This document shows positions 28,328-64,000 of a stretch of 64,000 nucleotides of DNA, piece by piece. The DNA comes from a virus (Duplodnaviria > Caudoviricetes): positions 1 to 64,000 of the IMG/VR virus record IMGVR_UViG_3300038393_000457. One strand, 5' to 3'. A model generated the notes under the pieces. The model saw only the letters and a list, made by a program, of their open reading frames with translations, did not search any database and had not been told where the DNA came from. Position 1 is the stretch's first letter. Each line of letters begins with the position of its first letter. A program made the translations under genes and the position numbers.

Positions 28328-28353
28328 TTGACAACACGATTAAATAAGATATG

Positions 28354-28385
28354 ATGCTCCGGAGATAGTCTCCGGAGCATTTATT
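28354..28385 (+). terminator. intrinsic terminator
   Basis: atgctccggaga-tag-tctccggagcat-tt. Confidence 0.7.
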
Positions 28386-28614: not shown

Positions 28615-29178
28615 ATGAGATATTATGCAGGGATAGGCTCCCGAAAAACACCAAAAGATGTTCTGTTCATCATGGAACGGATTGGTCAGAGTCTCGCCTC
28701 CAGATTTGTTCTTCGATCTGGTGGTGCCGGAGGTGCTGATACCTCCTTTGAAAGAGGGGCCAATCGAGGTCAAGGTGTCACAGAAATCTTCCTTCCATGG
28801 AAAGGTTTCAATGCGGATGACGAGGACCGTGAGTTTCTTCCGGTATCTGATTTGTTTCTTGACAATCTGCCTCAGAAAATACAATATGAGGCTGCTGAGA
28901 TTGCAAAGCAGTTTCATCGCCATTGGAATGAATTGACTATCGGAGGAAAAAAGCTTCATACCAGAAATGTTTTACAAATTCTTGGTCGTGATCTAAATAC
29001 CCCAAGTGAATTTGTTATCTGTTGGACAAAAGATGGTAAAGCAACCGGCGGAACCGGTCAGGCAATGCGTATTGCGAAATCTAAGGGAATTCCAATCTAT
29101 AATCTAAAGAATAACGATGACAGGGATTCTTTGGTGAAGTGGTGGAATATGGAATATGGGTCTGATCCCATCGTCTGA
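28615..29178 (+). CDS. SLOG superfamily (DprA/YpsA-like) protein
   Basis: YAGIGSR, LRSGGAGGAD, GGTGQAMRIA. Confidence 0.8.
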   Translation: MRYYAGIGSRKTPKDVLFIMERIGQSLASRFVLRSGGAGGADTSFERGANRGQGVTEIFLPWKGFNADDEDREFLPVSDLFLDNLPQKIQYEAAEIAKQFHRHWNELTIGGKKLHTRNVLQILGRDLNTPSEFVICWTKDGKATGGTGQAMRIAKSKGIPIYNLKNNDDRDSLVKWWNMEYGSDPIV

Positions 29179-29383
29179 TCTTGAAACTACTCGTTGGCCA
29201 GAAGATCATCCAAATCTTCGTCCTGGCGGTCAACATGTCGGTAGTGGCCCTTTCGGAATCAAGGTAAAACACATTCCTTCTGGAATTGAAGCATGTGTGG
29301 ATATTGGGTCTTCACAACATCGCAATAGACAGATTGCCATAGAGATGATAGAAGCAGCATTAACAAGTGAGTGGTACAGATGA
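29156..29383 (+). CDS. minimal class I release-factor (GGQ) domain protein
   Basis: PGGQHV...IKVKHIPSGI...SQHRNRQIA aligns to RF1/RF2 domain 3. Confidence 0.75.
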   Translation: MGLIPSSDLETTRWPEDHPNLRPGGQHVGSGPFGIKVKHIPSGIEACVDIGSSQHRNRQIAIEMIEAALTSEWYR

Positions 29384-30391
29384 TTGTTTATTTCTTCACA
29401 GCCTTATGGGTATTAACTTGGGCCCATTTTTTCCATGCATCTGTCACGATACACAATTTACCAAAAGGTATTGGATATCTTGGTATGATTGTATTAATGA
29501 TTATTGGCGGTTTTATCGCTAATGGTCTCTTGTCTCTTTAATTTTAGTGGTTAATATGATTGATATTACAGAAAAGTACGGCAAGGATGTTTTCGATCTT
29601 ATTTGCAAGATTGATGATTTCATTAAGAAGGGTTTGGAACATCGTTCCTTTGGGCAAGGAGTGTATGCAAAGGATAGTGGTTTCAAGATGACAGGTATTA
29701 TGGATTATGGATCATTCTATGTCCAATTTCCTGAATCGGCTCCGGTTTCTCTTGCTGTTATCGATCTCAATTCCGGTGAATATTTCTTTGAGTCGTTTGA
29801 AATTCTTGGTAAGAAACTAAATATCTATGCTTTGGACGATTTCAATATTGAACGTGTGATCAAGCGTGCTGAGGCTGAATGGGCAATGGATTCACAGGAG
29901 AACGTTTAATTGCGTGCGTCTTATTTGGCGGCTTTCGTTTATTGGTTGTTTAAGAAGTTTTGGTTTCCGTTATTCCGAGATACCAGACTTCTGGCAATTT
30001 TCTTATCAGAAATAGAGGTATATAGAAGTATCCATGGAACCATCAATAATGAACCAGAAGAAGAATGAATGGGAACATTGGTGTCATTGTAATGAGATGT
30101 TTATAGTCCTGGAAGTAGGACTTTCATGTGAAACGTGCCATAGAACAGAACCAGAAAAGCCTCCTTTACAAACACAAGAGACTATGATAAGGTCAGAACT
30201 ATGAAAAGGATCATTACGGCTATTCTTTTAGCTATTGGTTTGTCGAGTTGTGCCTATTATGGCCCGGCTCCGATTTACTCTGTGCCGGTCGCCGTATATA
30301 CGCCACCGGTCGTTGTATATCACTATCCCAGTTATCCAAGGTATTATTACCACTATCGATATTGTCATCGTTGCTATTAAGGACGTAAATT

Positions 30392-30855: not shown

Positions 30856-31075
30856 GGTGGATGGCACCGGCGCGCGGCGGGGACTAAGGTATGAATTGGT
30901 AACATCTTACATGGAATAAATTTGCTTCTATGGTGTAACGGCAGCACGGTGTCCTTATAAGACATAAGCGGTAGATGACCGCGCGGAACAGGTTCGAATC
31001 CTGTTAGAAGTACCAATCCTGGAGATCGGCTAGATTAGCTGGAACGGCACGGTTCGAAACCGTGATCCACTACCA
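30856..31075 (+). pseudogene. Sec/Ser-like long-variable-arm tRNA split at the anticodon by a 129-nt insert containing tRNA-Ile
   Basis: ggtggat (30856) pairs with atccact-ACCA (31075); ggggact...aatcct anticodon stem flanks the insert. Confidence 0.6.
30924..31015 (+). tRNA. trnI: tRNA-Ile(TAT) with long variable arm
   Basis: gtgtc-cttataa-gacat; gcggt-agatg-accgc variable hairpin; ACCA. Confidence 0.85.
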
Positions 31076-31354
31076 AAATTGAGGATACAATGAATATATA
31101 TTTGGTTTGGGGTAGATATTGCGTTCAATATGAAGGATGTGAGGAATGGTTTGTCTGCGCCTATTTCTCTGAGAAAGATGCTGAGAAGCATGTAGAATAT
31201 GCAAATAAATGGGTATCTGAACATATTGACTCTAGGGTAAAGGATTTCCCTAATCCTTATGATTCATATTGCACCGAATATTTTTGGCGTAGTGAGACCG
31301 AGTATCATTACAGCCCCATCCTCATAAAAAATTATTTTAAACCAATGTTGGAGC

Positions 31355-31861
31355 TTGACATTGAGTGTATCTAAAGTGCGAATTGGTGATGAATCCAAAG
31401 GAAAACCAGAATTTGAAGGACTATTTGGTCCGGGAATTTATGGGTTCTTTGGTGAATATAGATGGCTCTCCAATTTTTATGGATTTTCCATTGAATATAA
31501 TGGAAACAAATTTCGATCAACAGAACATGCTTATCAAGCTGCAAAATGCCTTGATCCGAACGATATCAATTTGTTTTCTGGATGCACAATGGCAGAAGCC
31601 AAGTTATATGGTCGCAAAGTTGCTAGGCGTCCTGACTGGGAACAGGCCAAAGATGGTGTTATGCTTGACGTACTCCGGATTAAGTATATGAATCCGGAAT
31701 TGAAACAGAAGTTAATCGACACCAATGGCCTTTATCTTGAAGAGACAAATTGGTGGGGAGATCAATATTGGGGTGTTTGTGAAGGCAAAGGTCTAAACAA
31801 ACTTGGTAAACTGATTATGCGAGTACGAGATGAAATCGATTCTGGACAATTACACGGATGA
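31355..31861 (+). CDS. NADAR (YbiA/RibX-like) family protein
   Basis: WLSNFY, STEHAYQAAK, EETNWWGDQYWG, NKLGKLIM. Confidence 0.9.
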   Translation: MTLSVSKVRIGDESKGKPEFEGLFGPGIYGFFGEYRWLSNFYGFSIEYNGNKFRSTEHAYQAAKCLDPNDINLFSGCTMAEAKLYGRKVARRPDWEQAKDGVMLDVLRIKYMNPELKQKLIDTNGLYLEETNWWGDQYWGVCEGKGLNKLGKLIMRVRDEIDSGQLHG

Positions 31862-32006
31862 AGTGTTCAATAACCTGGCTATCCAGGTTGGAGTAAAAGC
31901 TGCAGATACTCTCTGCACATTAGAAAATATGGTTCATTACTTCCTTGAAAATATCAGTCCTGAGGAGGCTGCCAAGGAATTAGTAATACAGGTAGTGGAG
32001 ATTTGA

Positions 32007-32294
32007 TTGGCTAAGACTAGACGACATGAGGAATATGAAGATAGTGGTTACAACCAACTATCTTTTGCGCCTTTTTGTGATGATTTCAGACATTTAGTTT
32101 GTCTACCATATTCAGTGGAAAACCTACATATTATAGCAAAAGAACTTGGTATTGGTAGGTCTTGGTTCCACGAAGGTAGACTTCCTCATTATGATATTCC
32201 AAAGAAGCGCGTTGATGAAATCACATCTCTGTGCAATGTCATTTCAACACGTGATATTGTGAGGATTATCAAAGGTCAAATTGGTAATACCTAA
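32007..32294 (+). CDS. DUF4031-like protein
   Basis: HLVC...LH..A..LGI.RSWF...HYDI. Confidence 0.7.
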   Translation: MAKTRRHEEYEDSGYNQLSFAPFCDDFRHLVCLPYSVENLHIIAKELGIGRSWFHEGRLPHYDIPKKRVDEITSLCNVISTRDIVRIIKGQIGNT

Positions 32295-32336
32295 AAAAGG
32301 ATTTGACAAAAATTAAGAGTGGTGTATAAGTAATAC

Positions 32337-32431
32337 GGATGCTGAACTGGACAAGCGCGCCGGCCACGACTTGAAATCGTGTGGAGCCTCAGAGATGGGG
32401 TTTGGAGGGCAGGACTACCCGGCATCCGCCA
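32337..32431 (+). tRNA. trnS: tRNA-Ser(TGA), non-canonical T-arm, 8-bp acceptor possible
   Basis: cacga-cttgaaa-tcgtg; ggatgctg/cggcatcc; GCCA. Confidence 0.7.
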
Positions 32432-32433
32432 TT

Positions 32434-32522
32434 GGAAAGTAAATTGCTCGGGCGGGCAACCACGCTTGGAAAGCGTGTGGTTCTTTAAAAGGAATACGGA
32501 TCAAGACCGTTGCTTTCCTCCA
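32434..32522 (+). tRNA. trnS: tRNA-Ser(GGA), 8/4-type fold
   Basis: ggaaagta/tgctttcc; cacgc-ttggaaa-gcgtg; acgg-atcaaga-ccgt; TCCA. Confidence 0.7.
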
Positions 32523-32548
32523 TTTTCTAAACCAAAAGGTAAATTGTT

Positions 32549-33145
32549 ATGAAGTCTTTGATGAACAAGATTCCTTGCACTTCTGCAACGAAGATGATGA
32601 TGTGGCATTTCATGGATGCCCCTGAGAAGTTTGCTACGGAAGACCATAAGAAGCTCTTCCATAGAATGGCTATGGCTGATGAATTTTGTCTGATGGACCT
32701 GCTGTCCTTGATGGATTATATAAATCGGCACCCTGTTACTGGAAATTATGACTATTCCAATCTTGGTGGGGCAGGACCTGATTTCATCATTGGTCAGTTG
32801 GAAGTCATGTTCCAGACAACTGCAATGACCGAGAGTATGCATTATTATGATGTTCTCGTTGGTTTTGCGGAGAATCGTGCTACGAGTTATCAGGAATTGG
32901 TTGATTACCTTGCAACTAATCCTATTCTCCCTTCTCCGACTGAGATCAGGGCTCAGTCGGATAAGGTTACCCGTGACACCAAGAAGATTATCTTGGATAA
33001 GATTGCCAAGCTCGACCCTTCTCTCGTGAACCAGTTCGGTTTGGATGATATTGCAGACAAGTACCTGGACGATGTTGGTGGTCAGGAAGGAAGTGATCTT
33101 TCTGATTGGGGCAGCGCAGAAGGAATGAAGAGAAAGCTTCACTAA
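32549..33145 (+). CDS. hypothetical protein
   Basis: 198-aa ORF with highly-expressed-type codons. Confidence 0.6.
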   Translation: MKSLMNKIPCTSATKMMMWHFMDAPEKFATEDHKKLFHRMAMADEFCLMDLLSLMDYINRHPVTGNYDYSNLGGAGPDFIIGQLEVMFQTTAMTESMHYYDVLVGFAENRATSYQELVDYLATNPILPSPTEIRAQSDKVTRDTKKIILDKIAKLDPSLVNQFGLDDIADKYLDDVGGQEGSDLSDWGSAEGMKRKLH

Positions 33146-33210
33146 CACAGTTACATTGCTTTCTCTCTGAGGTGATGATATAAAAGAGAAGAGTAATGTA
33201 AAGGTGTTAT

Positions 33211-33798
33211 GTGCAAATTCTTTCACTTGACAAGTCTGGGTATCCTAGAGGGTTTATTACGATCCAAAATGCAATCGAAATGATTGCGAAGGATAAAATC
33301 CTTTGGAGTCTTGGTAACCCAATTGCAACTTATCGTGGTGGTTATAACAATGATGGTGTGCGTTCCGTAATCGAAACGCCACCTATCATTGCTATCACCG
33401 GAACAGAGTTTGCAAAACAAAAGCGTTTTCCTAAAGTTATCCTGACGAACAATTCGCTTTTTAGTAGGGATCGTCATATTTGCGCTTATTGTGGTGGAAA
33501 ATTCATGCCACGAAAGCTATCACGTGATCATGTAATACCTGTTTCTCGTGGTGGTCCGAATACCTGGAAGAATGTGGTGACTGCATGTATCCCATGTAAC
33601 ACCAAGAAGGATAATCGGACCCCAGAAGAAGCTGGAATGAAACTTCTGTATGTTCCTTATGAGCCCTCTCATGCGGAACATCTAATATTGAAGAATCGCA
33701 ACATCACAGAAGATCAAATGGATTATCTATCAAACCATGTGTCGCCGGAGTTTCTCCGGCGCATGACGGATGTAGAATTATTTGGTGAGGATAAATAA
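33211..33798 (+). CDS. HNH endonuclease (McrA/HNH_5-like)
   Basis: RDRHICAYCG...DHVIPVSRGG.NTWKNVVTACIPCN.KK. Confidence 0.9.
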   Translation: MQILSLDKSGYPRGFITIQNAIEMIAKDKILWSLGNPIATYRGGYNNDGVRSVIETPPIIAITGTEFAKQKRFPKVILTNNSLFSRDRHICAYCGGKFMPRKLSRDHVIPVSRGGPNTWKNVVTACIPCNTKKDNRTPEEAGMKLLYVPYEPSHAEHLILKNRNITEDQMDYLSNHVSPEFLRRMTDVELFGEDK

Positions 33799-34919
33799 TG
33801 AAACTCGCTTTCTATAAAGTCGCACCTATGGCTGATGATGTGGACAATCTTGTTCCAATCAAATATGCTTACATGGATGGATATGTCTTTGGTGATCGTA
33901 TACTTGAAGATGTAATGTTCAAATATTGGATTGATGACAAAGGTAAATTGAAGTCTGATTTTGCTAAACCGAATGGTTATACCAAAGGTTTGAATAAAAA
34001 GAAATGGCTCAAGGAATCTATTGGTTATGTTACCGCCGTGGAAGGTGTTGTTGAATTTCAGTTAATTGAGGATGTGCTTTCTGAAGCGGTATTGTGGGAC
34101 CATGATAGATCATGGAATGATCAACCATATACATTCTTTGATGAAGAACCACGATTTGTGACTAAGTAAGGAATTATTCCCTATTAGACTAACTGGAAGG
34201 TCGCTAGACTCTGAATCTAGAAGTCCTGGTTCGAATCCAGGGTTGGGAGCCAATTCGAGGTTATCATGGAATATGGTTATCGTCTAATTAATCCATCATA
34301 TACAGAAGCCGCCGAATTGTGGCTCGCTAAATTGAATGTCGATTATGATTATGTAGATATTGGTTATTGGCGTCTCTATCGTATTCATTCGGATCAATTC
34401 AACAAGTTACCTGATGACAGAGGCCCATATATCCCGGTTGATGAAGATCAAGGTTTCGGTCTGATGGATGACCAGATAGCAGAATCTGAAGCGGAAGAGG
34501 CTGGTGGATGGATTAAGGTAGCACAATGAGAAATATATTGGAATATCCTATAACCAAAGAAGAAGTAGAGACTGTTTTTGTTGATGCTTTCAATGACCAT
34601 AATGGTGAAGTTGGTGGTCATCAACAAATGGTAATCCAGGACTTACTAGATAACTTTGATGAAATTTGGGAAAAGTATTATAAAGACAAGTTTGGATATG
34701 CCAATCAATAGTGATACATTCCTGGTAAATTCCATTATTGATTTATTGGAAGATCATGGTTTCAAAGGCTTGGACGGTCCAGCTATTGTATTCGAAATGC
34801 AATCCAGACATTGGACCGCTGAGGAAACCAGAAAAGCATATATTGAATTGTGTAATGAAGGTATTGTAACTTACGTGCCTTCTGGTCGCTACAAATTGAC
34901 TAAGTTTATACCAAGATAA
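33798..34919 (+). CDS. four small hypothetical ORFs (33798-34169, 34266-34529, 34526-34711, 34656-34919)
   Basis: ORF track with RBS/overlap coupling. Confidence 0.45.
34178..34252 (+). tRNA. trnQ: tRNA-Gln(CTG)
   Basis: ctaga-ctctgaa-tctag; GCCA. Confidence 0.9.
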
Positions 34920-35012
34920 GGATGGTTGTCAGAGTGGGTTATTGTCCGACTTTGCTAAAGTCGCGAGTGTCTGAAAAGGCCTCCATGGGTTCGAATCCCA
35001 TACCATCCTCCA
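34920..35012 (+). tRNA. trnS: tRNA-Ser(GCT)
   Basis: cgact-ttgctaa-agtcg; long variable arm; TCCA. Confidence 0.9.
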
Positions 35013-35120
35013 TTTTTTTAATTTATTTTTGTAATTTTGGTAAAAAAGAATACTAAGTAAACTCTCAAAGGCTTGACTACCTCAAATATTCTGATATTAT
35101 ATAGAAATGAAGCATTGATT

Positions 35121-35312
35121 TAGGCAGATTCATTCGCCTGTAAAGAGCATTATCGCTCACCGCTGTAAGGTTGGTTATTGAATGAATCTTCCTAAATTAA
35201 TGAATCCTCGATGCTAGTTTGTAACTGAGATTGTATCAAGAAGTGCAGGAATGATTGCAAAATTCCTGAAAAACAAACGACCCATCGGCTCCAGAGTCGT
35301 AATTCTGGAGAC
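35121..35312 (+). ncRNA. structured RNA(s) directly downstream of a sigma70-type promoter
   Basis: taggcagattcattc/gaatgaatcttccta stem and further hairpins; no ORF. Confidence 0.45.
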
Positions 35313-35320
35313 TTTACAAT

Positions 35321-35395
35321 GCACCGTTCGTCTATAGGAAGGACACTTGGCTTTCAACCAGGGCAGCAGGGGTTCGAATCCCCTACGGTGCACCA
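35321..35395 (+). tRNA. trnE: tRNA-Glu(TTC)
   Basis: cttgg-ctttcaa-ccagg; gcaccgt/acggtgc; ACCA. Confidence 0.95.
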
Positions 35396-35453
35396 ATTAC
35401 TACCCCTACCAAGGGATCGAATAAAAGATCATAACTTTGGTAGTTTCATTTAT

Positions 35454-35503
35454 GCTCGCTCGCCGTAAGGTGTGCAACTGATCGAAAGATCAAGCGAGCA
35501 CCA
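35454..35503 (+). ncRNA. 50-nt CCA-ended tRNA-minihelix mimic
   Basis: gctcgct/agcgagc + ACCA with two GNRA-capped hairpins. Confidence 0.6.
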
Positions 35504-35539
35504 ATTATAATGTCCCTATAGTGAAACTGAATAGTCAAT

Positions 35540-35617
35540 GGTGCTGTATCCCTCGACGCTACGAACGTCGTGAAAGGTAATTGGATCATGCAGGTTCGAC
35601 CCCTGTCAGCATCTCCA
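35540..35617 (+). tRNA. D-armless tRNA-Arg(ACG)-like RNA
   Basis: ggtgctg/cagcatc TCCA; cgacg-ctacgaa-cgtcg; only 7 nt between acceptor and anticodon stems. Confidence 0.7.
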
Positions 35618-36194
35618 TTATTCTATTAGGTTCTCCATATAGAAGCTTAATAGATTTTTTTACTTGATCTAATTTCTCCTGTTGTTTGATGACAACGATT
35701 GGATTCTTTGGATCAAGAAATATGTTAAGATTAGGAAGATAGAAATCTGGAAAGTATTTGTGTTCTTTCCCATTTTTATCGATCCAAGGAATTGATGTTT
35801 TTGGTTGTTCCCAAATAATATTGGCTTCATCAAGTAATTGGGCCATTTTTACTTCCCAACCAGAATCAAAGATAAAGTTTTTGTAAATTTGACGTTTTAT
35901 ACCGGAAGCATTCTTTCTTTTGACCGCGATGAAACATTGGTCAGAACAAGTTGTTCCAATTTTCTTTTGTGACGCAAAATATTTTTGGCATACAGAACAT
36001 TGTCGAAAATATACCTTGGAATTGGGTCCACAAACATGTCTCTTGCTGAAGAAGCCTCTTTTACCAATTGTTGTTGATTTTATCCTTGTATAATTACGAC
36101 CGCGTTTAAGGTTATTGTATGTTGCGGAACAAGATGAACCACAGAATTTTCTTTTTAATGGTATAAGTAAGTTGCAATTTAAACAATTATGCAT
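35586..36194 (-). CDS. PD-(D/E)XK-type homing endonuclease with N-terminal Zn-binding motifs
   Basis: CxxC repeats; DSGWE...KYFPDFYLP..NIFLDPKN. Confidence 0.8.
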   Translation of the reverse strand: MHNCLNCNLLIPLKRKFCGSSCSATYNNLKRGRNYTRIKSTTIGKRGFFSKRHVCGPNSKVYFRQCSVCQKYFASQKKIGTTCSDQCFIAVKRKNASGIKRQIYKNFIFDSGWEVKMAQLLDEANIIWEQPKTSIPWIDKNGKEHKYFPDFYLPNLNIFLDPKNPIVVIKQQEKLDQVKKSIKLLYGEPNRIMEMLTGVEPA

Positions 36195-36526
36195 TATAAA
36201 TCTCCTTCTAAATGCTAATTGTATTTAGTAAAATTTCGACTCAAGATGTGGGTTCGAGTCCTGCTAGGGACGCCATTTAAGAGGTTGTTATGACAGATTG
36301 GGGAACAGGTTGCACAGAGACGAGTGATGATTGTACTCTTCACAACCTTCATTGTGGTTATCCAAATTATCCTAAAGGTAAAAGGGATAAAGCAAAGATC
36401 AAAACTCCAACGGAGTTGATCGTGGAAAGAATGAGAAGTCTTGGTCTAGCTATCAATGACGCTCAGAGAATCGCCAATGAAGTTGTTCATGTACTTGGAC
36501 AAAATGGTTATTTGAAATAGAAATTT

Positions 36527-36606
36527 GGGGGACGGGACTGCTTGGGGTGGTCGTCGCACTTGCAATGCGAATATTCAGCAGGGTTCAAATCCCTGGTTCT
36601 CCACCA
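36527..36606 (+). tRNA. trnA: tRNA-Ala(TGC)
   Basis: G3-U70 pair; tcgca-cttgcaa-tgcga; ACCA. Confidence 0.9.
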
Positions 36607-36608
36607 AA

Positions 36609-36727
36609 ATTAACATACACCAGCGCCGCGTGGTTATACTAATCACCTAAGACGTGAAAGCATTCGAAAGAATGGGCCTGTTGGAGCAAAATACGGTGCG
36701 GATAAACTTGCTTTCATGTATGTTAAT
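36609..36727 (+). ncRNA. compact pseudoknotted RNA candidate
   Basis: 11-bp closing stem; crossing gcgccg/cggtgc and tgaaagca/tgctttca helices. Confidence 0.55.
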
Positions 36728-37018
36728 ATTCTAGAAATAGTCAGCTAACAACTTCCCCGTAGAAGGGGTGGCCAGTCACAAATCGACGGCCTGACAAATG
36801 GTTAGCACAATTCAGAGCTTAGACCGGGATCGATTCACTCAGAAGCTATCAGTGACCGGCTATGTGGTTGTTGTCTCGCAATGCTTCTGGCACGCAACCA
36901 GAAATTATGCAGGTACCATTCGCGTGAAGATTTGGCTAAGCTAATGTGATAATCTGAGGCCTGCACCACATTAGATGTTGACAGTAAGTAGAGTTTTTGT
37001 TAGTATGTGTTTGTTCGT

Positions 37019-37331
37019 TCTTAGAGAAATGCCGTGACAGAGTGATCACGTTTTACTTTTCGGACGGAATGTGCCCTGGTAAACAACTACGGGGCGGGAG
37101 TAGGAGTGAGAAGGATAAAGTCCTTGAAGACTGGAAAGTATGTTGTAGCGTCCAGTTGGAGAGAGCAACACGACAGAACATAGTCTAGAAAAGCGTGTTG
37201 TATCCGTTAATAACGGATGAGTCGTTGATAATGTACTAAGCGGCCACTTGGTAAGTTTGAGACTCTGACTGATTAATCCCCTCATGTTTGAAACTCGGAG
37301 GCCTTGACAGCCACCCGGCATTTCTCTAAGA
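37019..37331 (+). ncRNA. 313-nt multi-hairpin RNA candidate
   Basis: perfect 16-bp terminal helix; TTGACA-N17-TAGTAT promoter upstream. Confidence 0.7.
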
Positions 37332-37454
37332 TCGAATGATTGTAGACGCTAAGGTTTAATTTGACCTCAGAAGTGAAAACCAATAAAGATTGTTGGTGAT
37401 AGTATCTTCGATTACGAGACGATTTGAAAGGGTCGGTTCTACATTTGTTTTTAT

Positions 37455-37529
37455 ACGGGAGTAGCTCAGTGAAAGAGCGTCTGGCATCAGGTCAGAAGGT
37501 CGGTGGTTCAAGTCCATCCTTCCGTGCCA
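37455..37529 (+). tRNA. tRNA with apparent TCA anticodon (A33, G37); suppressor-like or degenerate
   Basis: tctgg-catcagg-tcaga; acgggag/cttccgt; GCCA. Confidence 0.6.
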
Positions 37530-37534
37530 ATTAT

Positions 37535-37589
37535 GGAGGGCTTCCTAAGGGTATGGGAGCTAAGTGCGCTAGAGGTGCAACCTCCACCA
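37535..37589 (+). ncRNA. 55-nt CCA-ended two-hairpin mini RNA
   Basis: ggagg/cctcc + ACCA. Confidence 0.45.
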
Positions 37590-37656
37590 GTTTTTGATAT
37601 AGACAACGACGATGATGATCTTACCTGTATTTGGAGAAATTTAATTTCTTCTTAGT

Positions 37657-37729
37657 ACACCAGTGTTCCGACAGGTAAGGGAGACGTCTTTTAAACGTCT
37701 ATATGTGGGTTCAAATCCCACCTGGTGTA
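37657..37729 (+). tRNA. trnK: tRNA-Lys(TTT) within a 21-bp inverted repeat, no CCA
   Basis: gacgt-cttttaa-acgtc. Confidence 0.8.
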
Positions 37730-38442
37730 CTAAGAAGAAATTTTTTCTTTACAGTATTATAATTAGCACCTCTTGGACTTTTTCCTTGTGCAATAAGATA
37801 TTGACGAATAGAAGGATATCCTTCTATTTCAATTTTCTTGGTGTTCTTTCTACGTCTTATATTTCTACCTCTCCATGTATCTGTTTGTGAATGACAATTT
37901 GGGCATAGAAATTCCACATTTTCTCTTGTGTTATTATGATGATTACCATCCTTATGTTCAAATTCCAATGTAATTGGTTTACCTAACCAAGTGTCATTAT
38001 GACATTTATTGCACCTATTTTCTTGATCTCTTAATACCTGTTCTTTAAGTTCTTTGACATATGATAATGGATTTCTTTCTCGTCTTTTTGCATGTTCTAT
38101 TTTCCATTTAAGACCATCCATTAATCTTTTATGTTCCATTGAACAAAATTTCTTTTGTTTTCTGCTAAGTATATTATAACAACCATCAATTCCACAATAA
38201 CAATTTTTATTATCTAAATCCTTTAGACGTTGGAAATTGTTGACTCTGGTGGAACAACTATTGCAGCAATATTTTGGATTTCTTGTGTTTTTGTTGCATT
38301 CTTGGTTCATACATTGATGTGGTTGTCTCATTATTTGACTTTCATTTTTTGTTATGTTAGTATTTACCATACTAAATAATTGATCAAAAGTCAATTGGAT
38401 ATTATAAATAGGATTTCCGGCACGATGTAATGGTGCCGCCAA
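37711..38442 (-). CDS. HNH homing endonuclease with Zn motifs (true start probably internal)
   Basis: RCNKC..W.GKPITLEFEHKDGNHHNNTRENVEFLCPNCHSQT. Confidence 0.9.
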   Translation of the reverse strand: MAAPLHRAGNPIYNIQLTFDQLFSMVNTNITKNESQIMRQPHQCMNQECNKNTRNPKYCCNSCSTRVNNFQRLKDLDNKNCYCGIDGCYNILSRKQKKFCSMEHKRLMDGLKWKIEHAKRRERNPLSYVKELKEQVLRDQENRCNKCHNDTWLGKPITLEFEHKDGNHHNNTRENVEFLCPNCHSQTDTWRGRNIRRRKNTKKIEIEGYPSIRQYLIAQGKSPRGANYNTVKKKFLLSTPGGI

Positions 38443-38760
38443 GAACGTCGGTCAGATATGGCCGATTGGATCGCTCAGGTGGTCCTAGGTTCTTGGACAA
38501 GTTTTGCGGTAGCTTACGGATGTTTGTCTAGGTCGAAAGACTAAATTTCGGAGTGTGAAGGAAGCACGGTGGTCTTTTAGACGACCAGAATCGGATCGTT
38601 ACCGGTCGAAATTTTCCGCAACTAAATAGACAACCGTAGTGTGAAGAACACGTAAATCGGATGAATTTTTGGCATTGAGTGTTTGGGAAAGTATGATATC
38701 TGACTGCACTGGTTGATGCATTCCAGACGGTCTAACTCAACTATCACCGTTGGTTATCAT
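38411..38760 (+). ncRNA. ornate structured RNA candidate downstream of late promoter TATAAATA (38403)
   Basis: more than 10 helices, multibranch junctions, one pseudoknot; no ORF. Confidence 0.7.
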
Positions 38761-38843
38761 GGTACATGGTGGAAATGGTATACACGCACGTTTTGAAGAC
38801 GGGCGCTCGAAAGAGATTGCAGGTTCGAATCCTGTTGTACACT
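38760..38843 (+). pseudogene. degenerate class II tRNA (Leu-like D arm, TGA in loop)
   Basis: D and T arms intact, acceptor mispaired, no CCA. Confidence 0.6.
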
Positions 38844-38870
38844 GTGACGATCCATTCACTTGATTTTTGT

Positions 38871-38944
38871 TGCTCTTTCGTCTAACGGCAGGACCGGTGC
38901 CTTTGACTCACCAGATTGAGGTTCGAATCCTTGAAGAGCAGCCA
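38871..38944 (+). tRNA. trnQ: tRNA-Gln(TTG)
   Basis: loop ctttgac; tgctctt/aagagca; GCCA. Confidence 0.85.
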
Positions 38945-39002
38945 ATTCTCGTTTTAAGGTAAGGGTTTTCCTCAGCGTTAAAAATCCTTCCAACAGGATT
39001 AT

Positions 39003-39077
39003 ACTCTCGTCGTCTAGTGGCTAAGGCGCGCGCTTGATAGGCGTGAAAACGGGGATCGAAACCTCGCGGGAGTACCA
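39003..39077 (+). tRNA. trnI: tRNA-Ile(GAT)
   Basis: cgcgc-ttgatag-gcgtg; ACCA. Confidence 0.8.
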
Positions 39078-39093
39078 ATTTAAGAGGTATATT

Positions 39094-39300
39094 ATGTCTG
39101 ATAATAGCAGTAGTTCTAGTAGCGGTGGTATTGGTGTTTTCGGTTTGCTTGGTGTTGCATTCGTTGTTCTCAAGCTGACTGGATATATTGATTGGTCTTG
39201 GTGGTTAGTCACTCTACCATTTTGGGGTGGATTGGCTTTTGTTATTGCCTTTCTACTGATTATCTTCCTCGGTGCGGTTTTCTTAGAAATGAGAAAATAA
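39094..39300 (+). CDS. small two-helix membrane protein
   Basis: GIGVFGLLGVAFVVLKLTGYIDWSWWLVTLPFW. Confidence 0.7.
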   Translation: MSDNSSSSSSGGIGVFGLLGVAFVVLKLTGYIDWSWWLVTLPFWGGLAFVIAFLLIIFLGAVFLEMRK

Positions 39301-39303
39301 GTA

Positions 39304-39375
39304 GTCTCTCAGGTGTTGCAGGCGGCACAAGACTGTGGTATAGTTTAGGGCGCGTTTCGATTACGCGGAGAGGCA
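39304..39375 (+). tRNA. trnT: tRNA-Thr(GGT)-like, atypical loop, no CCA
   Basis: agact-gtggtat-agttt; gtctctc/gagaggc. Confidence 0.65.
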
Positions 39376-39380
39376 CATAG

Positions 39381-39437
39381 ACGGTGGATTTCCCTAAGTA
39401 AGCATAGGTAAGACTTGCTTAAAGGAAATCCACCGTG
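39381..39437 (+). promoter_or_regulatory. second copy of the RBS/GTG-sequestering hairpin
   Basis: acggtggatttcc-ctaagtaag / cttgctta-aaggaaatccaccgt. Confidence 0.7.
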
Positions 39438-40064
39438 TTCTATACGATTTATAAGATAACTAATAAAATTAATGGAAAATATTACATTGGTAAACATCAA
39501 ACTGAAAATTTAGATGATGGTTATTTTGGTTCTGGTAAATTAATCAAAAAAGCCATTAAAAAATATGGCATAGAAAATTTTATTAAAGAAATCTTGTTCG
39601 TGTATGATAATGAACAAGAAATGAATGAGAAAGAAAAGGAATTAGTAACCTTAAGAGAAGATAGTTATAACCTTTGTCCTGGTGGACAAGGTGGATTTGG
39701 TTATATTAATAAAATAATATCGAAAGATGATAGATCAAAATATGGTAAAATTGGCGGCATCAAAATATCCACAGAAATTCAAACAAAAGGATTGTTCTTC
39801 AAAAATCTTACCAACAAATTTTCTAAAGGAAATCCATACCGATTTACTAAAGAAAATAATTACATGGCAGGTAAACAACATTCCTTAGAAGTGAAGAAAA
39901 AAATTGGTGAAGCGAATTCTTTACATCAGTCTGGTAAAAAGAATTCTCAATATGGTACTTGTTGGATATATCATCCACAACTAGGTAATAAGAAGATTGA
40001 CAAAGAAGAACTAAATAAATATATTGAATTGGGCTATATTAAAGGCCGTCAAAAGTGGTATTAG
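39435..40064 (+). CDS. Seg-like GIY-YIG homing endonuclease, paralog of 186-827
   Basis: IYKITNKINGKYYIGKH; shared C-terminus QYGTCWIYHPQLGNKKIDK. Confidence 0.9.
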   Translation: MFYTIYKITNKINGKYYIGKHQTENLDDGYFGSGKLIKKAIKKYGIENFIKEILFVYDNEQEMNEKEKELVTLREDSYNLCPGGQGGFGYINKIISKDDRSKYGKIGGIKISTEIQTKGLFFKNLTNKFSKGNPYRFTKENNYMAGKQHSLEVKKKIGEANSLHQSGKKNSQYGTCWIYHPQLGNKKIDKEELNKYIELGYIKGRQKWY

Positions 40065-40085
40065 AGTTTGTAGAATGAGATTTGC

Positions 40086-40160
40086 TCCATCCGGACGATC
40101 AAGGTGAACGTGCTCGCCTGTTAAGCGAGATTAAGACAGGTTCGATGCCTGTGGATGGAG
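40086..40160 (+). tRNA. trnN: tRNA-Asn(GTT), no CCA
   Basis: ctcgc-ctgttaa-gcgag. Confidence 0.85.
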
Positions 40161-40361
40161 CTAATCTCATTCAATAATTTTGGAGTTGTGATGAATAAGT
40201 TGTTGAATGCCTTTGAACGTTGGATGTGCGAATATCCACCCCTGTTGGATGACACCAAGGATATGAATGAACGTCCTGGTGGTTTTTGGACCTATCGTGC
40301 GAAGAAAGCATATCCACCTGGTCGCGGTCCAGAAAAATATTGGGATGATTTAGAAAAGAAT

Positions 40362-40434
40362 GCCTAGTGGTCTCGGGTACCAATCTGGTCTCATAAGCTG
40401 GATGTGATTGGTTCAAATCCAATACGAGGCACCA
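40362..40434 (+). tRNA. tRNA-Met/Ile2(CAT) with shortened D arm
   Basis: loop ctcataa; ACCA. Confidence 0.75.
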
Positions 40435-40531
40435 AAATTGCGGAAAGACTACCATGGATGTCGTCACAGGGACCGTGACCTTGCGCGTTGAGGATAGACT
40501 GTTGACCCGCAATAGTATTTGTGTATAATTT

Positions 40532-40613
40532 GCCAAGTTCGCATAGCGGCGATTGCAGCACTTTTGTAAAGTGCCATTCCACATCGGGGGTTCGAGTCCC
40601 TCACTTGGCTCCA
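40532..40613 (+). tRNA. trnT: tRNA-Thr(TGT), enlarged variable region
   Basis: gcact-tttgtaa-agtgc; TCCA. Confidence 0.9.
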
Positions 40614-40887
40614 ATTAATGTTGACCTTGTGACTATGCCGGTGGAAGTTGATAGCCCCATAGATATGGAAGAATCAGCGACTCAAGGAAGCCGTCAACAT
40701 TGACAAGATTTTGTATTATGGTATAAATAGATCATGTTTAGAGTTTTAGTTAGTTGGGCAGTTATTGCAGCTTTTATATTGGGATTGATGGATTGGGCGT
40801 ATGATCTATCTGAACGTTACAATCAACCAAACCCAAATAGAGCAGTAATTGTGGTTCCAAAGGAGCCAATAAAATATTAATTGTAAT

Positions 40888-40960
40888 GCGGGTGTTCTCC
40901 TGGGAGAGGACATTGCCTTCCAAGCAATTGAAGAGGGTTCGAATCCCTTCACCCGCTCCA
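40888..40960 (+). tRNA. trnG: tRNA-Gly(TCC)
   Basis: attgc-cttccaa-gcaat; TCCA. Confidence 0.9.
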
Positions 40961-40971
40961 TTATTTCTGAA

Positions 40972-41523
40972 GTGATGTTAAATAAAATAGAATGTCAAAA
41001 ATTATATGACCAAGGTTTCTCTTTAAAAGAGATTGCAGAAAAATTTGGTACCTATAAATTGAAGATTCAAAGACTTGGTCTGGATATTAGGACAAGTCAT
41101 GAGTCAAGAGAATTTCGTAATAACCACAAGTTAACAACGGAACAAAAGAAAAAATTATCATTGATAGCCATCAAAAGAGGTTTTGGTGGTACAAACAGAA
41201 GAAAGACATTTCTATACAAAAATGTTATTTTGGAAAGTTCTTATGAATTGAAAGTGGCTAAAGAATTAGATAATAATGGAATTTTGTGGGAACGACCCAA
41301 AAGATTTCATTGGATTGATAATTTTGGAATTAAGCACCATTATACGCCAGATTTTTATCTTCTAGATTATGATCTATATCTTGATCCCAAAAATGATTAT
41401 CTAATTAAAAAAGATAAAGACAAAATTGAAAGAGTTCAAAACCAAAACAACATAAAGATATTTGTTATTGATAAGTATCATTTGACGTGGAAAGATATTT
41501 CTGTTATAATAGGTAAATCTTAA
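40972..41523 (+). CDS. PD-(D/E)XK-type homing endonuclease, same family as 35586-36194
   Basis: ESSYE...HYTPDFYL..YDLYLDPKN. Confidence 0.8.
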   Translation: MMLNKIECQKLYDQGFSLKEIAEKFGTYKLKIQRLGLDIRTSHESREFRNNHKLTTEQKKKLSLIAIKRGFGGTNRRKTFLYKNVILESSYELKVAKELDNNGILWERPKRFHWIDNFGIKHHYTPDFYLLDYDLYLDPKNDYLIKKDKDKIERVQNQNNIKIFVIDKYHLTWKDISVIIGKS

Positions 41524-41536
41524 ATAGAGGTGTATT

Positions 41537-42288
41537 GTGATGGTATTTCTTGCTTGGATTGTTGTTGCTTTTGTCATTATCGGAGGTGCCCTTGCTATGA
41601 TGAAGGGTTTCAATAAGGGTCCAGACTATTCGTCTGAAACCGACGGTAAGGTTCTGGATACTTCTGACAATACCTGGAAGACACCAGAAGAACTGATGTC
41701 GTCTGCTAATTCTTTTACGCAAATTGTAAATTCGGTTCAATAAGTTTGAATGCCGCTTTGGCTGTGATGGTTCAAGCACCGCGCTGAAGACGTGGATATC
41801 TCGGTTCGATCCCGAGGGGCGGCTCCATTTTCTATGAGGTTAAAATGGTAATTGTTGGTCTAGTTTTGATTCTTGGCATTCTTGGTTGGATCGTATATGA
41901 AAAGATTGTCAAGAATGAAAGGATTGCAGCACAAGTAATTCGTGAACGTGAATTGGATGAAGAAGTTGTCCGAGATAGGGTTTATGATCCGGTACTGAAT
42001 GATATTGTTTTGGATCGTATCAATAAGCTTCGTGTCTACAATGGACGTACTCCATTGACAATGGAACAAGCAAAGTCTGCGATCGATATGCGTAAACTTC
42101 ATTCCGTAGACACCATTATTTCAAGTGCTCCTGGTGGTAAGCGTCAATGTGTTGACACCAATGAGAAATTTTTGGAATATTTGAATCCTGATTATGCTGT
42201 TGAAATTGAAAAGCCTGGTACTCCTTTGAATAAAGGAATCTTTGCTGCTATTGACAAAGATATGCAAAAGAATAAGAAGACTAAGTAA
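41537..42288 (+). CDS. two membrane-anchored hypothetical proteins (41537-41743, 41845-42288)
   Basis: N-terminal TM helices, RBS. Confidence 0.55.
41752..41827 (+). tRNA. trnF: tRNA-Phe(GAA)
   Basis: ccgcg-ctgaaga-cgtgg; TCCA. Confidence 0.9.
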
Positions 42289-42297
42289 AGAGTAATT

Positions 42298-42382
42298 GCG
42301 GGTGTCGGATAGCGGCTATTCCGCTTCCTTGCCAAGGAAGAGCCGAAAGGCATCATGGGTTCGAGTCCCATTACCCGCTCCA
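42298..42382 (+). tRNA. trnG: tRNA-Gly(GCC) with long variable arm
   Basis: cttcc-ttgccaa-ggaag; gcc-gaaa-ggc arm. Confidence 0.9.
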
Positions 42383-42632
42383 ATCCCTCCCATCTAACGT
42401 GTCTCAATGGATGGTGTATGATTGCTGGTTCAATTTTCTGTCAGATGCGGCACGCGACTTTGGCAGTAAACGGTAGTCTCTCCAGCTATAAAAAGGATGA
42501 AACCGAATATTTCTTTGTGTGATCAGTAGTGAATTTTGCGACACGTAAGTCTAGCTATTGGTTCCACCTTGTATGATCTGTGTCGAGGAGTGGCGGATGC
42601 TTAAACTTGACAAGTGTGAATATGAGTTTTAT

Positions 42633-42716
42633 ATCGGTGCTAGGGTAGTGGGATACCTAACTGTCTCCAAAACAGTCGCCTAGAGCTAGGGGGTTCGATT
42701 CCTCACACCGGTGCCA
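42633..42716 (+). tRNA. trnW: tRNA-Trp(CCA) with enlarged variable region
   Basis: actgt-ctccaaa-acagt; GCCA. Confidence 0.85.
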
Positions 42717-42960
42717 TAGCGTGCTAGACGTTATCTAGCCTGGTCCTATGACAGTTCCATAGGAAGGGATTTGTTGATTGTTCCTGGAACAATACAATCA
42801 TCGCGAAATTCTCTGCCCCTATAGTTTACTTTAGGGCCCCCCGAGTCCTTCGTGACACGGGACGATGCCTGCAAGTGTGACCTTGCAGGGACCAATGGAG
42901 TAATCTGTTGGTATAGGGTAGCCAGCGTTCCCCATGTCACAGAAACGCTGGGTTTATTTT

Positions 42961-43036
42961 GGTTCCGAAGAGCAAAGGATAGAGCCTCTTCCCTGTCTAG
43001 GAAGAGTAGGGGGTTTGAGTCCCCCCGGAATCGCCA
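42961..43036 (+). tRNA. trnD: tRNA-Asp(GTC), weak D stem
   Basis: cttcc-ctgtcta-ggaag; GCCA. Confidence 0.8.
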
Positions 43037-43213
43037 TTTTCTCCACGCGGCAGGAAGCGGGGTCCACTGAAACAGCCCGTAAGGATAAAAGGAATTAGGA
43101 GTCCAGTAGAATAAGATTTCATTTGAAAGTTGCCGTCTGAGACGGATTTGGTATAACTGCGGTGGATATTATTCGTGAAGCTTGTCCCTTGGTCCTTGGA
43201 GAAAGTTATTGAC

Positions 43214-43286
43214 GTGGGCGTGGTGTAGTGGTAGCACAGGAGATTGTGATTCTCCAGGGATGGGTTCGAACCCCAAGCTCACCCCA
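43214..43286 (+). tRNA. trnH: tRNA-His(GTG)
   Basis: ggaga-ttgtgat-tctcc; CCCA. Confidence 0.85.
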
Positions 43287-43294
43287 GATTTTTA

Positions 43295-43745
43295 TGATGT
43301 TTGGAAAGACTGTATAATGAGTAGGAATAATTTGAAGGCGACCTAAGGATAGGGTAGTCCCGCGTGTAGTCACAGGTCCAATTAAAGTCTCCCATCTTAT
43401 TGAAAATTATACATCTTCTCCGACTGCCTGCACATTACGGTGTGTGATTGGAGCATCTGGTATTCCAATGTCTAGAAATAGGCGGCAGAGCAATTGAACA
43501 AATAAGTAGAATAGGAAATTCCCAACGGAGGGTGAGTGTCAACCACTGGAATGACATTTGCAAGTCTAGTATACATGAGTGGCCAGCCGTAAGGTAAAGC
43601 GCACGTGAAGGTCGACAACAGCCCGTATGTACTCTTTTGAAGTGCTATGCTACCCAAGAGTGGTAGGAAAGTAATAAGAAGGATGATGACGGTCCCCTGG
43701 ATAACCGAAAGCCGAAGAACGTCAGACTTCCAACGTGTATATTAG
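43295..43745 (+). ncRNA. about 450-nt ornate ncRNA candidate between tRNA-His and tRNA-Cys
   Basis: multiple nested domains, no credible ORF. Confidence 0.65.
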
Positions 43746-43769
43746 AGACTGCAAGGGAATATTTTTTTT

Positions 43770-43847
43770 GGTGCCGTGGACTGAATGGATTTAGGCACGA
43801 GACTGCAAATCTCGTTTATGTGGGTTCAAGTCCCACCGGCTCCTCCA
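43770..43847 (+). tRNA. trnC: tRNA-Cys(GCA)
   Basis: cgaga-ctgcaaa-tctcg; TCCA. Confidence 0.9.
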
Positions 43848-43868
43848 ATTTATATAATAAGGAAGATA

Positions 43869-45731: not shown

Positions 45732-45945
45732 GCAAAAGACAACCCTTAAAAAGGAATCTCAAATGGTAGACGTAGTAAAGACTGCTCAAGATGCGGCTAA
45801 CACCGTAAATCAGACTGCACAGACTGTAGAAACCAAGGTAGAGGTTTCCGAAAGCTGGGTGAAACAGCACCCTCTTATCACTCTAGCTATTGGTGCTGGT
45901 CTAGTTCTATTGGTTCTAGCTCTGGTTCTTTAATCAATTTTTTAT

Positions 45946-46030: not shown

Positions 46031-46049
46031 GTTTTGTATAAAGGTAATT

Positions 46050-46220: not shown

Positions 46221-46229
46221 AAATATTTT

Positions 46230-47016: not shown

Positions 47017-47024
47017 ATTCTAAC

Positions 47025-63999: not shown

Positions 64000-64000
64000 C

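What the first reader, a model, noticed from the sequence alone, without database searches (positions are those of the whole stretch)
29156..29383. Stand-alone 75-aa GGQ release-factor domain
Seen: DLETT...PGGQHV...IKVKHIPSGIEAC...SSQHRNRQIA aligns by eye to domain 3 of class I release factors (GGQHVN...IRITHLPTGIVVEC...SQHKNKAKA) with GGQ intact. It lacks the codon-recognition domains and the basic C-terminal tail of ArfB/YaeJ. Inference: a codon-independent peptidyl-tRNA hydrolase for ribosome rescue or host translation sabotage, or a decoy for PrmC or defence sensors.
Basis: partly seen in the sequence, partly recalled or inferred. Interest (0 to 1): 0.7.

Follow-up and report, generated by a model that had tools for sequence, protein, structure and literature searches.

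The report
Phage stand-alone GGQ release-factor mini-protein
A soil T4-like phage carries a well-conserved 75-residue gene that is only the peptide-releasing (GGQ) domain of a bacterial release factor. It belongs to a widespread phage family that databases already name but, in the papers I could search, nobody has tested.

Summary
Window 29156-29383 (+) is a 75-aa ORF homologous to domain 3 of class I release factors. Pfam RF-1 gives E 1.2e-6 for the single sequence. A profile of 8 homologs matches RF1/RF2 structures at E 5e-12. The AlphaFold model (pLDDT 80.7) aligns over residues 1-75 to E. coli RF2 231-302 and RF1 214-284 (Z up to 7.4).

GGQ is intact and invariant in the 8 closest homologs. 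There are no codon-reading domains, no ArfB tail and no ArfB-type inserted helix.

The gene is under purifying selection (dN 0.18, dS 1.6 against the nearest relative). It is better conserved than its neighbours.

It is one member of a large family of roughly 65-80-aa phage and prophage proteins. Of 110 short representatives, 90 keep GGQ and 7 have GGM. No partner gene is conserved across lineages. Databases already label these proteins "RF-1 domain". This scan has noted the same kind of protein in at least 53 other genomes.

I found no experimental study. The most likely role (about 0.45) is GGQ-dependent, codon-independent peptide release in the ribosome's catalytic centre, serving ribosome rescue during infection. 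The main caveat is that ArfB's GGQ domain alone neither binds ribosomes nor hydrolyses.

Verdict: new member of a known but uncharacterised kind.

The parts
29156..29383 (+). Mini release factor CDS: 75 aa, RF domain 3 only. Model secondary structure is strand 9-14, GGQ loop, strands 34-39 and 44-48, helix 54-70.
29225..29233 (+). Codons for G24-G25-Q26, the GGQ motif. Invariant in the 8 closest homologs.
28615..29178 (+). Upstream gene: DprA-like/SLOG protein (phrog_768). It overlaps the mini-RF start by 23 nt. The adjacency is kept in the closest relatives only.
28328..28381 (+). Sigma-70-like promoter match (TTGACA-16-TATGAT, 11 of 12) overlapping a 13-bp hairpin just after the NAMPT gene. 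Probable end of the NAD-salvage unit and start of the unit that holds the mini-RF. This is a consensus match only.
29380..29541 (+). Small hydrophobic ORF whose ATG overlaps the mini-RF stop (ATGA). It is absent from the nearest relative's locus, so it is not a conserved partner.
29547..29909 (+). 120-aa ORF of unknown family. It lies downstream of the mini-RF here and in relative L059, at 46% identity.
30924..54423 (+). tRNA-rich district (27 of the window's 31 ARAGORN tRNA calls) starting 1.5 kb downstream of the mini-RF. Context only.

Best explanation
The gene encodes a free-standing copy of release-factor domain 3. Shown: homology, fold, an intact GGQ motif with the other core RF-1 motifs, purifying selection, and membership of a large phage family that has no conserved partner gene. 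Inferred: the protein docks where domain 3 of RF1/RF2 docks, in the A-site side of the large subunit, and puts its GGQ loop into the peptidyl-transferase centre. There it triggers hydrolysis of the peptidyl-tRNA without reading a codon and without probing the mRNA channel. With no sensor domain, selectivity would come from competition. Ribosomes that quickly receive a ternary complex or a true release factor are spared. Ribosomes whose A site stays empty for a long time are released; split 50S subunits that still hold peptidyl-tRNA could be released in the same way. In this T4-like phage the gene probably serves as part of a kit that keeps translation running. It appears to be expressed early, and it sits next to NAD-salvage genes, a NADAR gene and a 31-tRNA island.
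For: RF-1 homology and fold. Across 106 representatives of 60-100 aa the conserved positions are G24 92%, G25 98%, Q26 90%, V28, G29, H39, P41, G43, S53, Q54, N57, A61, M64 and L69. These include the core RF-1 motifs seen in the RF1/RF2 alignments. GGQ is invariant in the 8 closest homologs and present in 90 of 110 short representatives. Of the 20 without GGQ, 9 still keep the Gly-Gly pair: 7 GGM, one GGP and one GGS. Purifying selection: dN 0.175 and dS 1.58 against L059, with the mini-RF 75% identical while its neighbours are 54% and 46% identical. The family median dN/dS is 0.23 over 150 unsaturated pairs. The closest relatives are all short, and most end within 0-4 residues of the same C-terminal position, so this is a defined architecture and not a fragment. 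No partner gene is conserved across lineages, which fits a target supplied by every host, such as the ribosome. Relatives in Pseudomonas Otagovirus phages are fused to an L7/L12 C-terminal-domain motif, with Pfam PF00542 at 29.3 bits against a cut-off of 25.9. That links the family to the translation apparatus. Published context: RF-1-domain genes are a core gene of one class of Mycobacterium tRNA arrays (PMC5966550), and phages carry tRNAs and Pth2 as proposed ribosome-rescue tools (PMC7824862).
Against: No activity or ribosome binding has been shown for any member. ArfB/YaeJ lacking residues 101-140 (its GGQ domain alone) had no hydrolysis activity and stayed in the soluble fraction (PMC3950681). 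The window protein is slightly acidic (net charge -2) and the family median is 0, which is unusual for a protein that must hold on to rRNA unaided. In the window protein the Arg of the RSQ motif, present in 82% of the family, is Ser. About one in six short relatives has lost GGQ, including OLIVR5 gp157. Binding without catalysis may therefore be the function the family shares. The tRNA-island link is not general: most close relatives sit in temperate phages with 0-2 tRNAs nearby.
Confidence: 0.45

Rival explanations
1. Non-catalytic occupant or modulator. The protein binds the A-site/PTC region, or another partner of RF domain 3, and changes termination or elongation without hydrolysing. For example, it could compete with RF1/RF2 and so favour read-through.
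For: 20 of 110 short relatives lack GGQ. OLIVR5 gp157 has no GGQ. The Otagovirus relatives carry a conserved GGM. The window holds a tRNA-like gene with a UCA anticodon 8 kb away, and one close relative (L037) has a CUA-anticodon tRNA 0.85 kb downstream. Earlier notes of this scan describe GGQ-less forms as conserved; I did not check that here.
Against: The window's subfamily keeps GGQ without exception, and Gly-Gly is kept in about 90% of the family. I found no sign that the phage reads TGA as sense: the large genes have no internal TGA. The UCA tRNA has an atypical anticodon loop, with A where U33 is expected.
Confidence: 0.22
2. Host-translation sabotage. The chemistry is the same (codon-independent release), but it is used as a weapon that prematurely ends host protein synthesis or kills the cell.
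For: An unregulated GGQ domain could in principle act on any ribosome with a free A site. Some relatives sit in accessory-gene positions of temperate phages, between the tail genes and the integrase.
Against: It would hit phage translation equally. No antitoxin-like partner is conserved. One relative (P0008) lies in what looks like a bacterial chromosome, just after gyrB, which fits poorly with a potent toxin.
Confidence: 0.12
3. Substrate mimic or decoy for the host methyltransferase PrmC, or for another protein that recognises the GGQ domain. This would lower methylation and activity of host RF1/RF2.
For: The best structural match by a small margin is RF1 in its complex with PrmC (2b3t_B, Z 7.4), though it is tied with the other RF chains. 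The GGQ loop is intact.
Against: No evidence is specific to PrmC. The recurrent GGM variants have no glutamine to methylate, yet they are conserved. Weakening termination would also harm phage genes.
Confidence: 0.06
4. Decaying remnant of a phage-borne full-length release factor with no function of its own.
For: The single sequence scores below the Pfam curated cut-off (28.8 against 35 bits).
Against: Strong purifying selection. The length and C-terminal end are conserved across more than 100 clusters at 50% identity. No RF-like sequence lies in the flanks.
Confidence: 0.02

Closest known systems
Domain 3 (GGQ / peptidyl-hydrolase domain, Pfam RF-1 PF00472) of bacterial class I release factors RF1 and RF2
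   Same: Best sequence and structure match. The profile aligns to RF1 193-254 and RF2 234-295 at E 5e-12. The model aligns to E. coli RF2 231-302 and RF1 214-284. Both share the GGQ, TH.P.G and SQ..N motifs and the start of helix alpha-7.
   Different: The mini-protein has no domains 1, 2 or 4, so it has no codon reading. By the alignment and my own knowledge of RF structure, it ends about where the switch loop would follow. Family signatures differ from RF1/RF2: GGQ.VG instead of GGQ.VN, often W-P before the loop, and an end such as THP.FR (SEWYR here).
ArfB/YaeJ and mitochondrial ICT1 (codon-independent rescue factors)
   Same: Both are small proteins with a GGQ domain and no codon-reading domains. 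The proposed activity is the same kind.
   Different: ArfB needs a linker and a basic C-terminal helix in the mRNA channel, and its GGQ domain alone is inactive (PMC3950681). It also has an inserted helix that RFs lack. The window protein has neither. ArfB and ICT1 sequences did not reach E 0.01 with the family profile. They appear only as weaker structural matches, Z 5.8 and 4.8.
mtRF-R (C12orf65) with MTRES1, acting on split large subunits
   Same: A GGQ-domain protein that acts without codon reading, on large subunits holding peptidyl-tRNA (entry 7a5h). Structural match Z 6.3. This is a precedent for GGQ action without the small subunit.
   Different: mtRF-R is longer and works with a partner protein. 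No partner is conserved with the phage family. Sequence similarity is weaker (E 1.9e-5 to 9.4e-5).
PrfH (release factor H, paired with RtcB)
   Same: A reduced release factor with GGQ. NCBIfam prfH is the top single-sequence hit (E 2.5e-7).
   Different: PrfH is about 200 aa, with further domains and an RtcB neighbour. The phage record holds no RtcB, and the hit covers only the GGQ domain (118-166 of 200).
Phage 'RF-1 domain peptide chain release factor' mini-proteins (phrog_20323; e.g. Agrobacterium phage OLIVR5 gp157; 64-83-aa BFVD entries from Acinetobacter, Cellulophaga and uncultured phages)
   Same: Same architecture and size, and the same kind of genomic setting among small accessory genes. 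This is the family the window protein belongs to.
   Different: Many named members have lost GGQ (OLIVR5 gp157) or carry GGM plus an L12-like extension (Otagovirus). The window protein keeps GGQ, has a 3-residue insertion before the loop, and has Ser in place of the RSQ arginine.

Membership tests
RF-1 domain superfamily (Pfam PF00472; bacterial RF peptidyl-hydrolase domain) | Significant match to the family HMM | tested here: inconclusive
   The single sequence gives E 1.2e-6 but 28.8 bits, under the curated 35. All 8 close homologs carry a precomputed PF00472 hit. The family profile hits RF1/RF2 at E 5e-12. Homology is secure; only the curated cut-off is missed.
RF-1 domain superfamily (Pfam PF00472; bacterial RF peptidyl-hydrolase domain) | GGQ motif in the loop between the first and second strand | tested here: met
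   G24-G25-Q26 are present, aligned to the RF GGQ and invariant in 8 of 8 close homologs.
RF-1 domain superfamily (Pfam PF00472; bacterial RF peptidyl-hydrolase domain) | Three-stranded sheet plus long helix fold of domain 3 | tested here: met
   The AF2 model has strands 9-14, 34-39 and 44-48 and helix 54-70. Z is 7.4-5.5 to 47 RF-type chains over residues 1-75.
Canonical class I release factors RF1/RF2 | Codon-recognition superdomain (domains 2 and 4, with the PxT or SPF motif) and domain 1 | tested here: not met
   The protein is 75 aa. The upstream and downstream DNA encodes unrelated genes. There is only one RF-1 match in the 83.8-kb record.
ArfB/YaeJ/ICT1 | Linker plus basic C-terminal helix that enters the mRNA channel | tested here: not met
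   The protein ends 5 residues after the domain-3 helix and has net charge -2. The requirement for the tail comes from PMC3950681.
ArfB/YaeJ/ICT1 | Inserted alpha-helix within the GGQ domain, absent from RF1/RF2 | tested here: not met
   Only a 4-residue turn separates strands 34-39 and 44-48 in the model. The feature is described in PMC3950681.
PrfH-RtcB ribosome repair pair | About 200-aa protein with extra domains, encoded next to RtcB | tested here: not met
   The match covers prfH profile 118-166 of 200 only. There is no RtcB in the record, although the record is only about 47% of the genome.
Phage stand-alone RF-1 mini-proteins (phrog_20323 and related clusters) | 65-80-aa protein made of RF domain 3 alone, encoded in phages or prophages | tested here: met
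   phrog_20323 gives E 1.4e-5. 110 of the 157 proteins on hand (the best 150 representatives plus the close homologs) are 100 aa or shorter. 25 of the 30 ESM Atlas feature hits share the RF-1 Pfam set; the three top clusters (59-99 members, 70-81 aa) are mostly viral. BFVD holds matches of 64-83 aa.
Functional peptidyl-tRNA hydrolysis factor | GGQ-dependent peptide release on ribosomes | not testable with these tools
   This needs biochemistry. I found no published test for any mini-RF.

The most novel reading that the evidence does not exclude
A GGQ domain with no tail and no partner is a third kind of bacterial-type rescue factor. It chooses its targets only by how long the A site stays empty. 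It could therefore free ribosomes stalled on intact mRNA, for example after host anticodon nucleases or tRNA depletion, and 50S subunits holding peptidyl-tRNA. tmRNA and ArfA do not serve these substrates, and ArfB serves them poorly. Phages would carry it alongside tRNA arrays as a counter-measure to attacks on translation.
Probability: 0.25. Interest if true: 0.8.

Novelty: new member of a known kind. Interest (0 to 1): 0.5.

Why it matters
All characterised GGQ factors need something that tells them when to fire. RF1 and RF2 use a codon-reading domain, ArfB and ICT1 use an mRNA-channel tail, and RF2 with ArfA or mtRF-R with MTRES1 use a partner. This family is widespread in phages, strongly conserved, and has none of these. 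That poses a clear and easily tested question: can domain 3 work alone, and on which ribosomes? A positive answer would add a new rescue principle and a new item to the phage toolkit for keeping translation alive under host attack. A negative answer would point to a natural protein ligand of the peptidyl-transferase centre or of another RF-binding partner. For this particular window the gene is one more member of that family and not a new kind.

Tried and rejected
- **Close DNA relatives.** Megablast of 28000-31000 against isolated phages found nothing. The phage's DNA polymerase is at most 44% identical to any isolate, the nearest being T4-like cyanophages.
- **Expression.** One metatranscriptome run held small parts of the 5-kb stretch, but its two contigs lie at 28409-28643 and 31407-31554 and do not cover the mini-RF. 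This gives no evidence either way.
- **Stop-codon recoding.** Reading TGA as sense does not lengthen the large genes, which have no internal TGA. I dropped recoding as a link to the UCA tRNA.
- **Conserved partner.** Clustering all ORFs within 3 kb of the gene in 30 loci gave only lineage-specific neighbours. One is a NusG-like antiterminator in a group of temperate phages. The DprA-like gene recurs only in the nearest relative and, 1.9 kb away from the RF gene, in PHB09.
- **Frameshift fusion.** I considered a programmed +1 frameshift joining the DprA-like ORF to the mini-RF and rejected it. There is no slippery re-pairing site at GTC-TGA. The overlap is 23 nt here but 4 nt in L059 and 8 nt in the P0002 contig.
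- **Other translation genes.** No RtcB, PTH2 or L12-like gene in the 83.8-kb record, which is only about 47% complete.
- **Wide tRNA-array link.** Most close relatives have 0-2 tRNAs within 10 kb, so the association is not general.
- **Foldseek threshold.** The PDB search returned no hit at E <= 0.001, although the top 48 rows were all RF-type chains. The VIA second look gave Z up to 7.4.
- **Complex prediction.** Not run. A PrmC pairing would probably pass only by likeness to the solved RF1-PrmC structure. The real target, rRNA, cannot be submitted.
- **Literature.** Six searches found no experimental work on phage mini-RFs.

Full report
**The observation**

GGQ is encoded at 29225-29233.

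The single sequence matches Pfam RF-1 at E 1.2e-6 (28.8 bits, below the curated 35), over profile positions 22-71 of 116. It matches NCBIfam prfH, prfB and prfA at E 2.5e-7 to 1.9e-6, always in their GGQ domain. It also matches phrog_20323, a 73-position phage family already named "RF-1 domain peptide chain release factor".

A profile of the eight closest homologs (alignment A1) hits 45 distinct PDB release-factor sequences. The best is E 5e-12, and the profile aligns almost end to end to RF1 193-254 and RF2 234-295.

An AlphaFold2 model built on A1 has mean pLDDT 80.7. It shows three strands, a less confident GGQ loop and a 17-residue helix. The top 48 Foldseek PDB hits are all class I RF-type chains. 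VIA-align gives Z 7.4-5.5 over model residues 1-75 against E. coli RF1 214-284 and RF2 231-302.

This is domain 3 and nothing else.

**What the protein lacks**

There is no room for further domains. The upstream gene, a DprA-like/SLOG protein of phrog_768, overlaps the start by 23 nt. A small hydrophobic ORF begins at the ATGA that contains the stop. The whole 83.8-kb virus record has only this one RF-1 match.

The protein has no basic tail and a net charge of -2. It also lacks the inserted helix that marks ArfB and ICT1. ArfB and ICT1 sequences did not reach E 0.01 with the family profile, whereas RF1/RF2 score 48 bits, PrfH 36 and mtRF-R 27. The protein is therefore an RF1/RF2-type domain 3, not a truncated ArfB.

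**A real gene under selection**

The eight closest homologs are 70-76 aa, plus one 114-aa gene call with an N-terminal extension. GGQ is invariant in all eight.

- Against the nearest relative with DNA available (L059), dN is 0.175 and dS is 1.58.
- The mini-RF is 75% identical between the two phages, while the flanking genes are 54% and 46% identical.
- Across 22 distinct family sequences, the median dN/dS of 150 unsaturated pairs is 0.23.

**The family**

An exhaustive profile search returned 6140 hits at E <= 0.001. Together with the close homologs, 157 proteins were on hand, and 110 of them are 100 aa or shorter. Most of these end within 0-4 residues of the same C-terminal position.

Conservation across 106 representatives of 60-100 aa:

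| Position | Conservation |
|---|---|
| G24 | 92% |
| G25 | 98% |
| Q26 | 90% |
| V28, G29, H39, P41, G43, R52, S53, Q54, N57, A61, M64, L69 | 82-99% each |

These include the core RF-1 motifs seen in the RF1/RF2 alignments, plus a family-specific GGQ.VG. The window protein has Ser at position 52, where 82% of the family has the RSQ arginine.

Of the 110 short proteins, 90 contain GGQ. Of the 20 that do not, 7 have GGM.

In the ESM Atlas, 25 of the 30 feature hits share the RF-1 Pfam set. The three top clusters (59-99 members, 70-81 aa) are mostly viral. The viral structure library lists 64-83-aa matches from Acinetobacter, Cellulophaga and uncultured phages.

This scan has noted the same kind of protein in at least 53 other genomes. 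The kind is therefore known at the level of annotation. Six literature searches found no experimental study of it.

**Genomic context**

The window comes from a soil or rhizosphere T4-like phage. It carries a family B polymerase, UvsX, a gp41-type helicase, a primase and ribonucleotide reductase. The record is about 47% complete. The polymerase is at most 44% identical to any isolate. The runs that hold this DNA are soil and rhizosphere metagenomes.

The mini-RF lies after an NMNAT-Nudix/NAMPT pair. A consensus promoter overlaps a strong hairpin at 28328-28381. A NADAR gene and a district holding 27 of the window's 31 tRNA calls follow downstream.

Relatives occur in quite different settings:

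- between the tail genes and the integrase of a temperate phage;
- directly upstream of a NusG-like antiterminator, which in 7 loci is followed by a tRNA;
- next to a DNA-polymerase exonuclease gene;
- after gyrB on what looks like a bacterial chromosome;
- in Rhizobiales, Sphingopyxis, Devosia and Rhodopseudomonas genomes.

Clustering of all neighbouring ORFs found no partner shared across lineages.

**Mechanism**

Shown: the protein has the fold and motifs that place a GGQ loop in the peptidyl-transferase centre, and selection maintains them.

Inferred: it docks like domain 3 and triggers peptidyl-tRNA hydrolysis without reading a codon. With no sensor, the only available discrimination is kinetic. 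It would act on ribosomes whose A site stays empty, or on split 50S subunits that still hold peptidyl-tRNA. mtRF-R on split mitoribosomal large subunits is a precedent for the second case (entry 7a5h).

Three things fit this reading:

- the missing partner gene;
- the published idea that phages bring tRNAs and peptidyl-tRNA hydrolases to rescue jammed ribosomes (PMC7824862);
- the reported RF-1-domain core gene of a class of Mycobacterium tRNA arrays (PMC5966550).

A further hint that the family works with the translation apparatus comes from Pseudomonas Otagovirus phages. Their "release factor 1" genes are a domain 3 with GGM, fused to the conserved factor-binding motif of the L7/L12 C-terminal domain. 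Pfam PF00542 scores 29.3 bits against a cut-off of 25.9 in PHB09.

**Evidence against**

- The GGQ domain of ArfB alone does not bind ribosomes and has no activity (PMC3950681).
- The family is not basic.
- A sixth of the short members have lost GGQ, which suggests that occupancy without catalysis could be the shared function.

I put 0.45 on the hydrolase/rescue reading. The rivals are a non-catalytic modulator at 0.22, sabotage by the same chemistry at 0.12, a PrmC-type decoy at 0.06 and a dead remnant at 0.02.

**Verdict**

Its functional reading is plausible but untested. The gene is a new, GGQ-intact member of a known but uncharacterised family of phage mini release factors. The open question of how a bare domain 3 can work, if it does, is easy to test and is of real interest to the ribosome-rescue field. 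That is why the score is moderate and not low.

Noticed in passing
L009:2494-2970 (Pseudomonas phage PHB09 gene 178) and L011:4941-5333 (phiPsa397 gp006): These Otagovirus 'peptide chain release factor 1' genes are an RF domain 3 with GGM instead of GGQ. It is fused to a C-terminal stretch that matches the L7/L12 C-terminal domain (PF00542, 29.3 and 25.7 bits, profile 10-37 of 67). By my own knowledge this is the motif that binds translational GTPases. I found no description of this fusion.
   Followed up: partly
window 37455-37529 (+): A tRNA gene with a UCA anticodon, which would read UGA. Rfam tRNA scores 50.9 bits. The anticodon loop is atypical, with A where U33 is expected and a possible sixth stem pair. 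The large genes show no in-frame TGA, so its role is unclear.
   Followed up: partly
window 25871-28327 and 31355-31861 (+): An NMNAT-Nudix gene, a NAMPT gene and a NADAR gene flank the mini-RF unit. This looks like an NAD-salvage and ADP-ribose-processing set of the kind linked to counter-defence.
   Followed up: no
L016:9992-10870, L020:9992-11106, L037:7012-8162, L038:4343-5302: In a group of temperate phages the mini-RF is followed directly by a NusG-like antiterminator (phrog_25909). In several loci a tRNA comes next: tRNA-Met in six loci and a CUA-anticodon (amber-reading) tRNA in L037.
   Followed up: partly
L010:4956-5153 (Agrobacterium phage OLIVR5 gp157): This protein is annotated 'RF-1 domain peptide chain release factor' but has no GGQ; the loop reads RPSGLVNV. 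The database name overstates what is known.
   Followed up: yes
window 33211-33798 and 39435-40064 (+): An HNH and a GIY-YIG (Seg-like) homing endonuclease gene sit inside the tRNA district. ThyX lies at 43785-44513.
   Followed up: no
G000:C1:64241-67083 (beyond the window's end): Several overlapping frames on both strands are free of TAA and TAG but full of TGA. GC content rises near the window's end (0.46 in 60001-64000). This could be a compositional oddity or foreign DNA.
   Followed up: no
window 28615-29178 (+): A DprA-like/SLOG protein (phrog_768, E 2e-60) overlaps the mini-RF start by 23 nt and may be translationally coupled to it. A 37%-identical homolog lies 1.9 kb from the RF gene in PHB09. 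It was found in no other mini-RF locus.
   Followed up: partly
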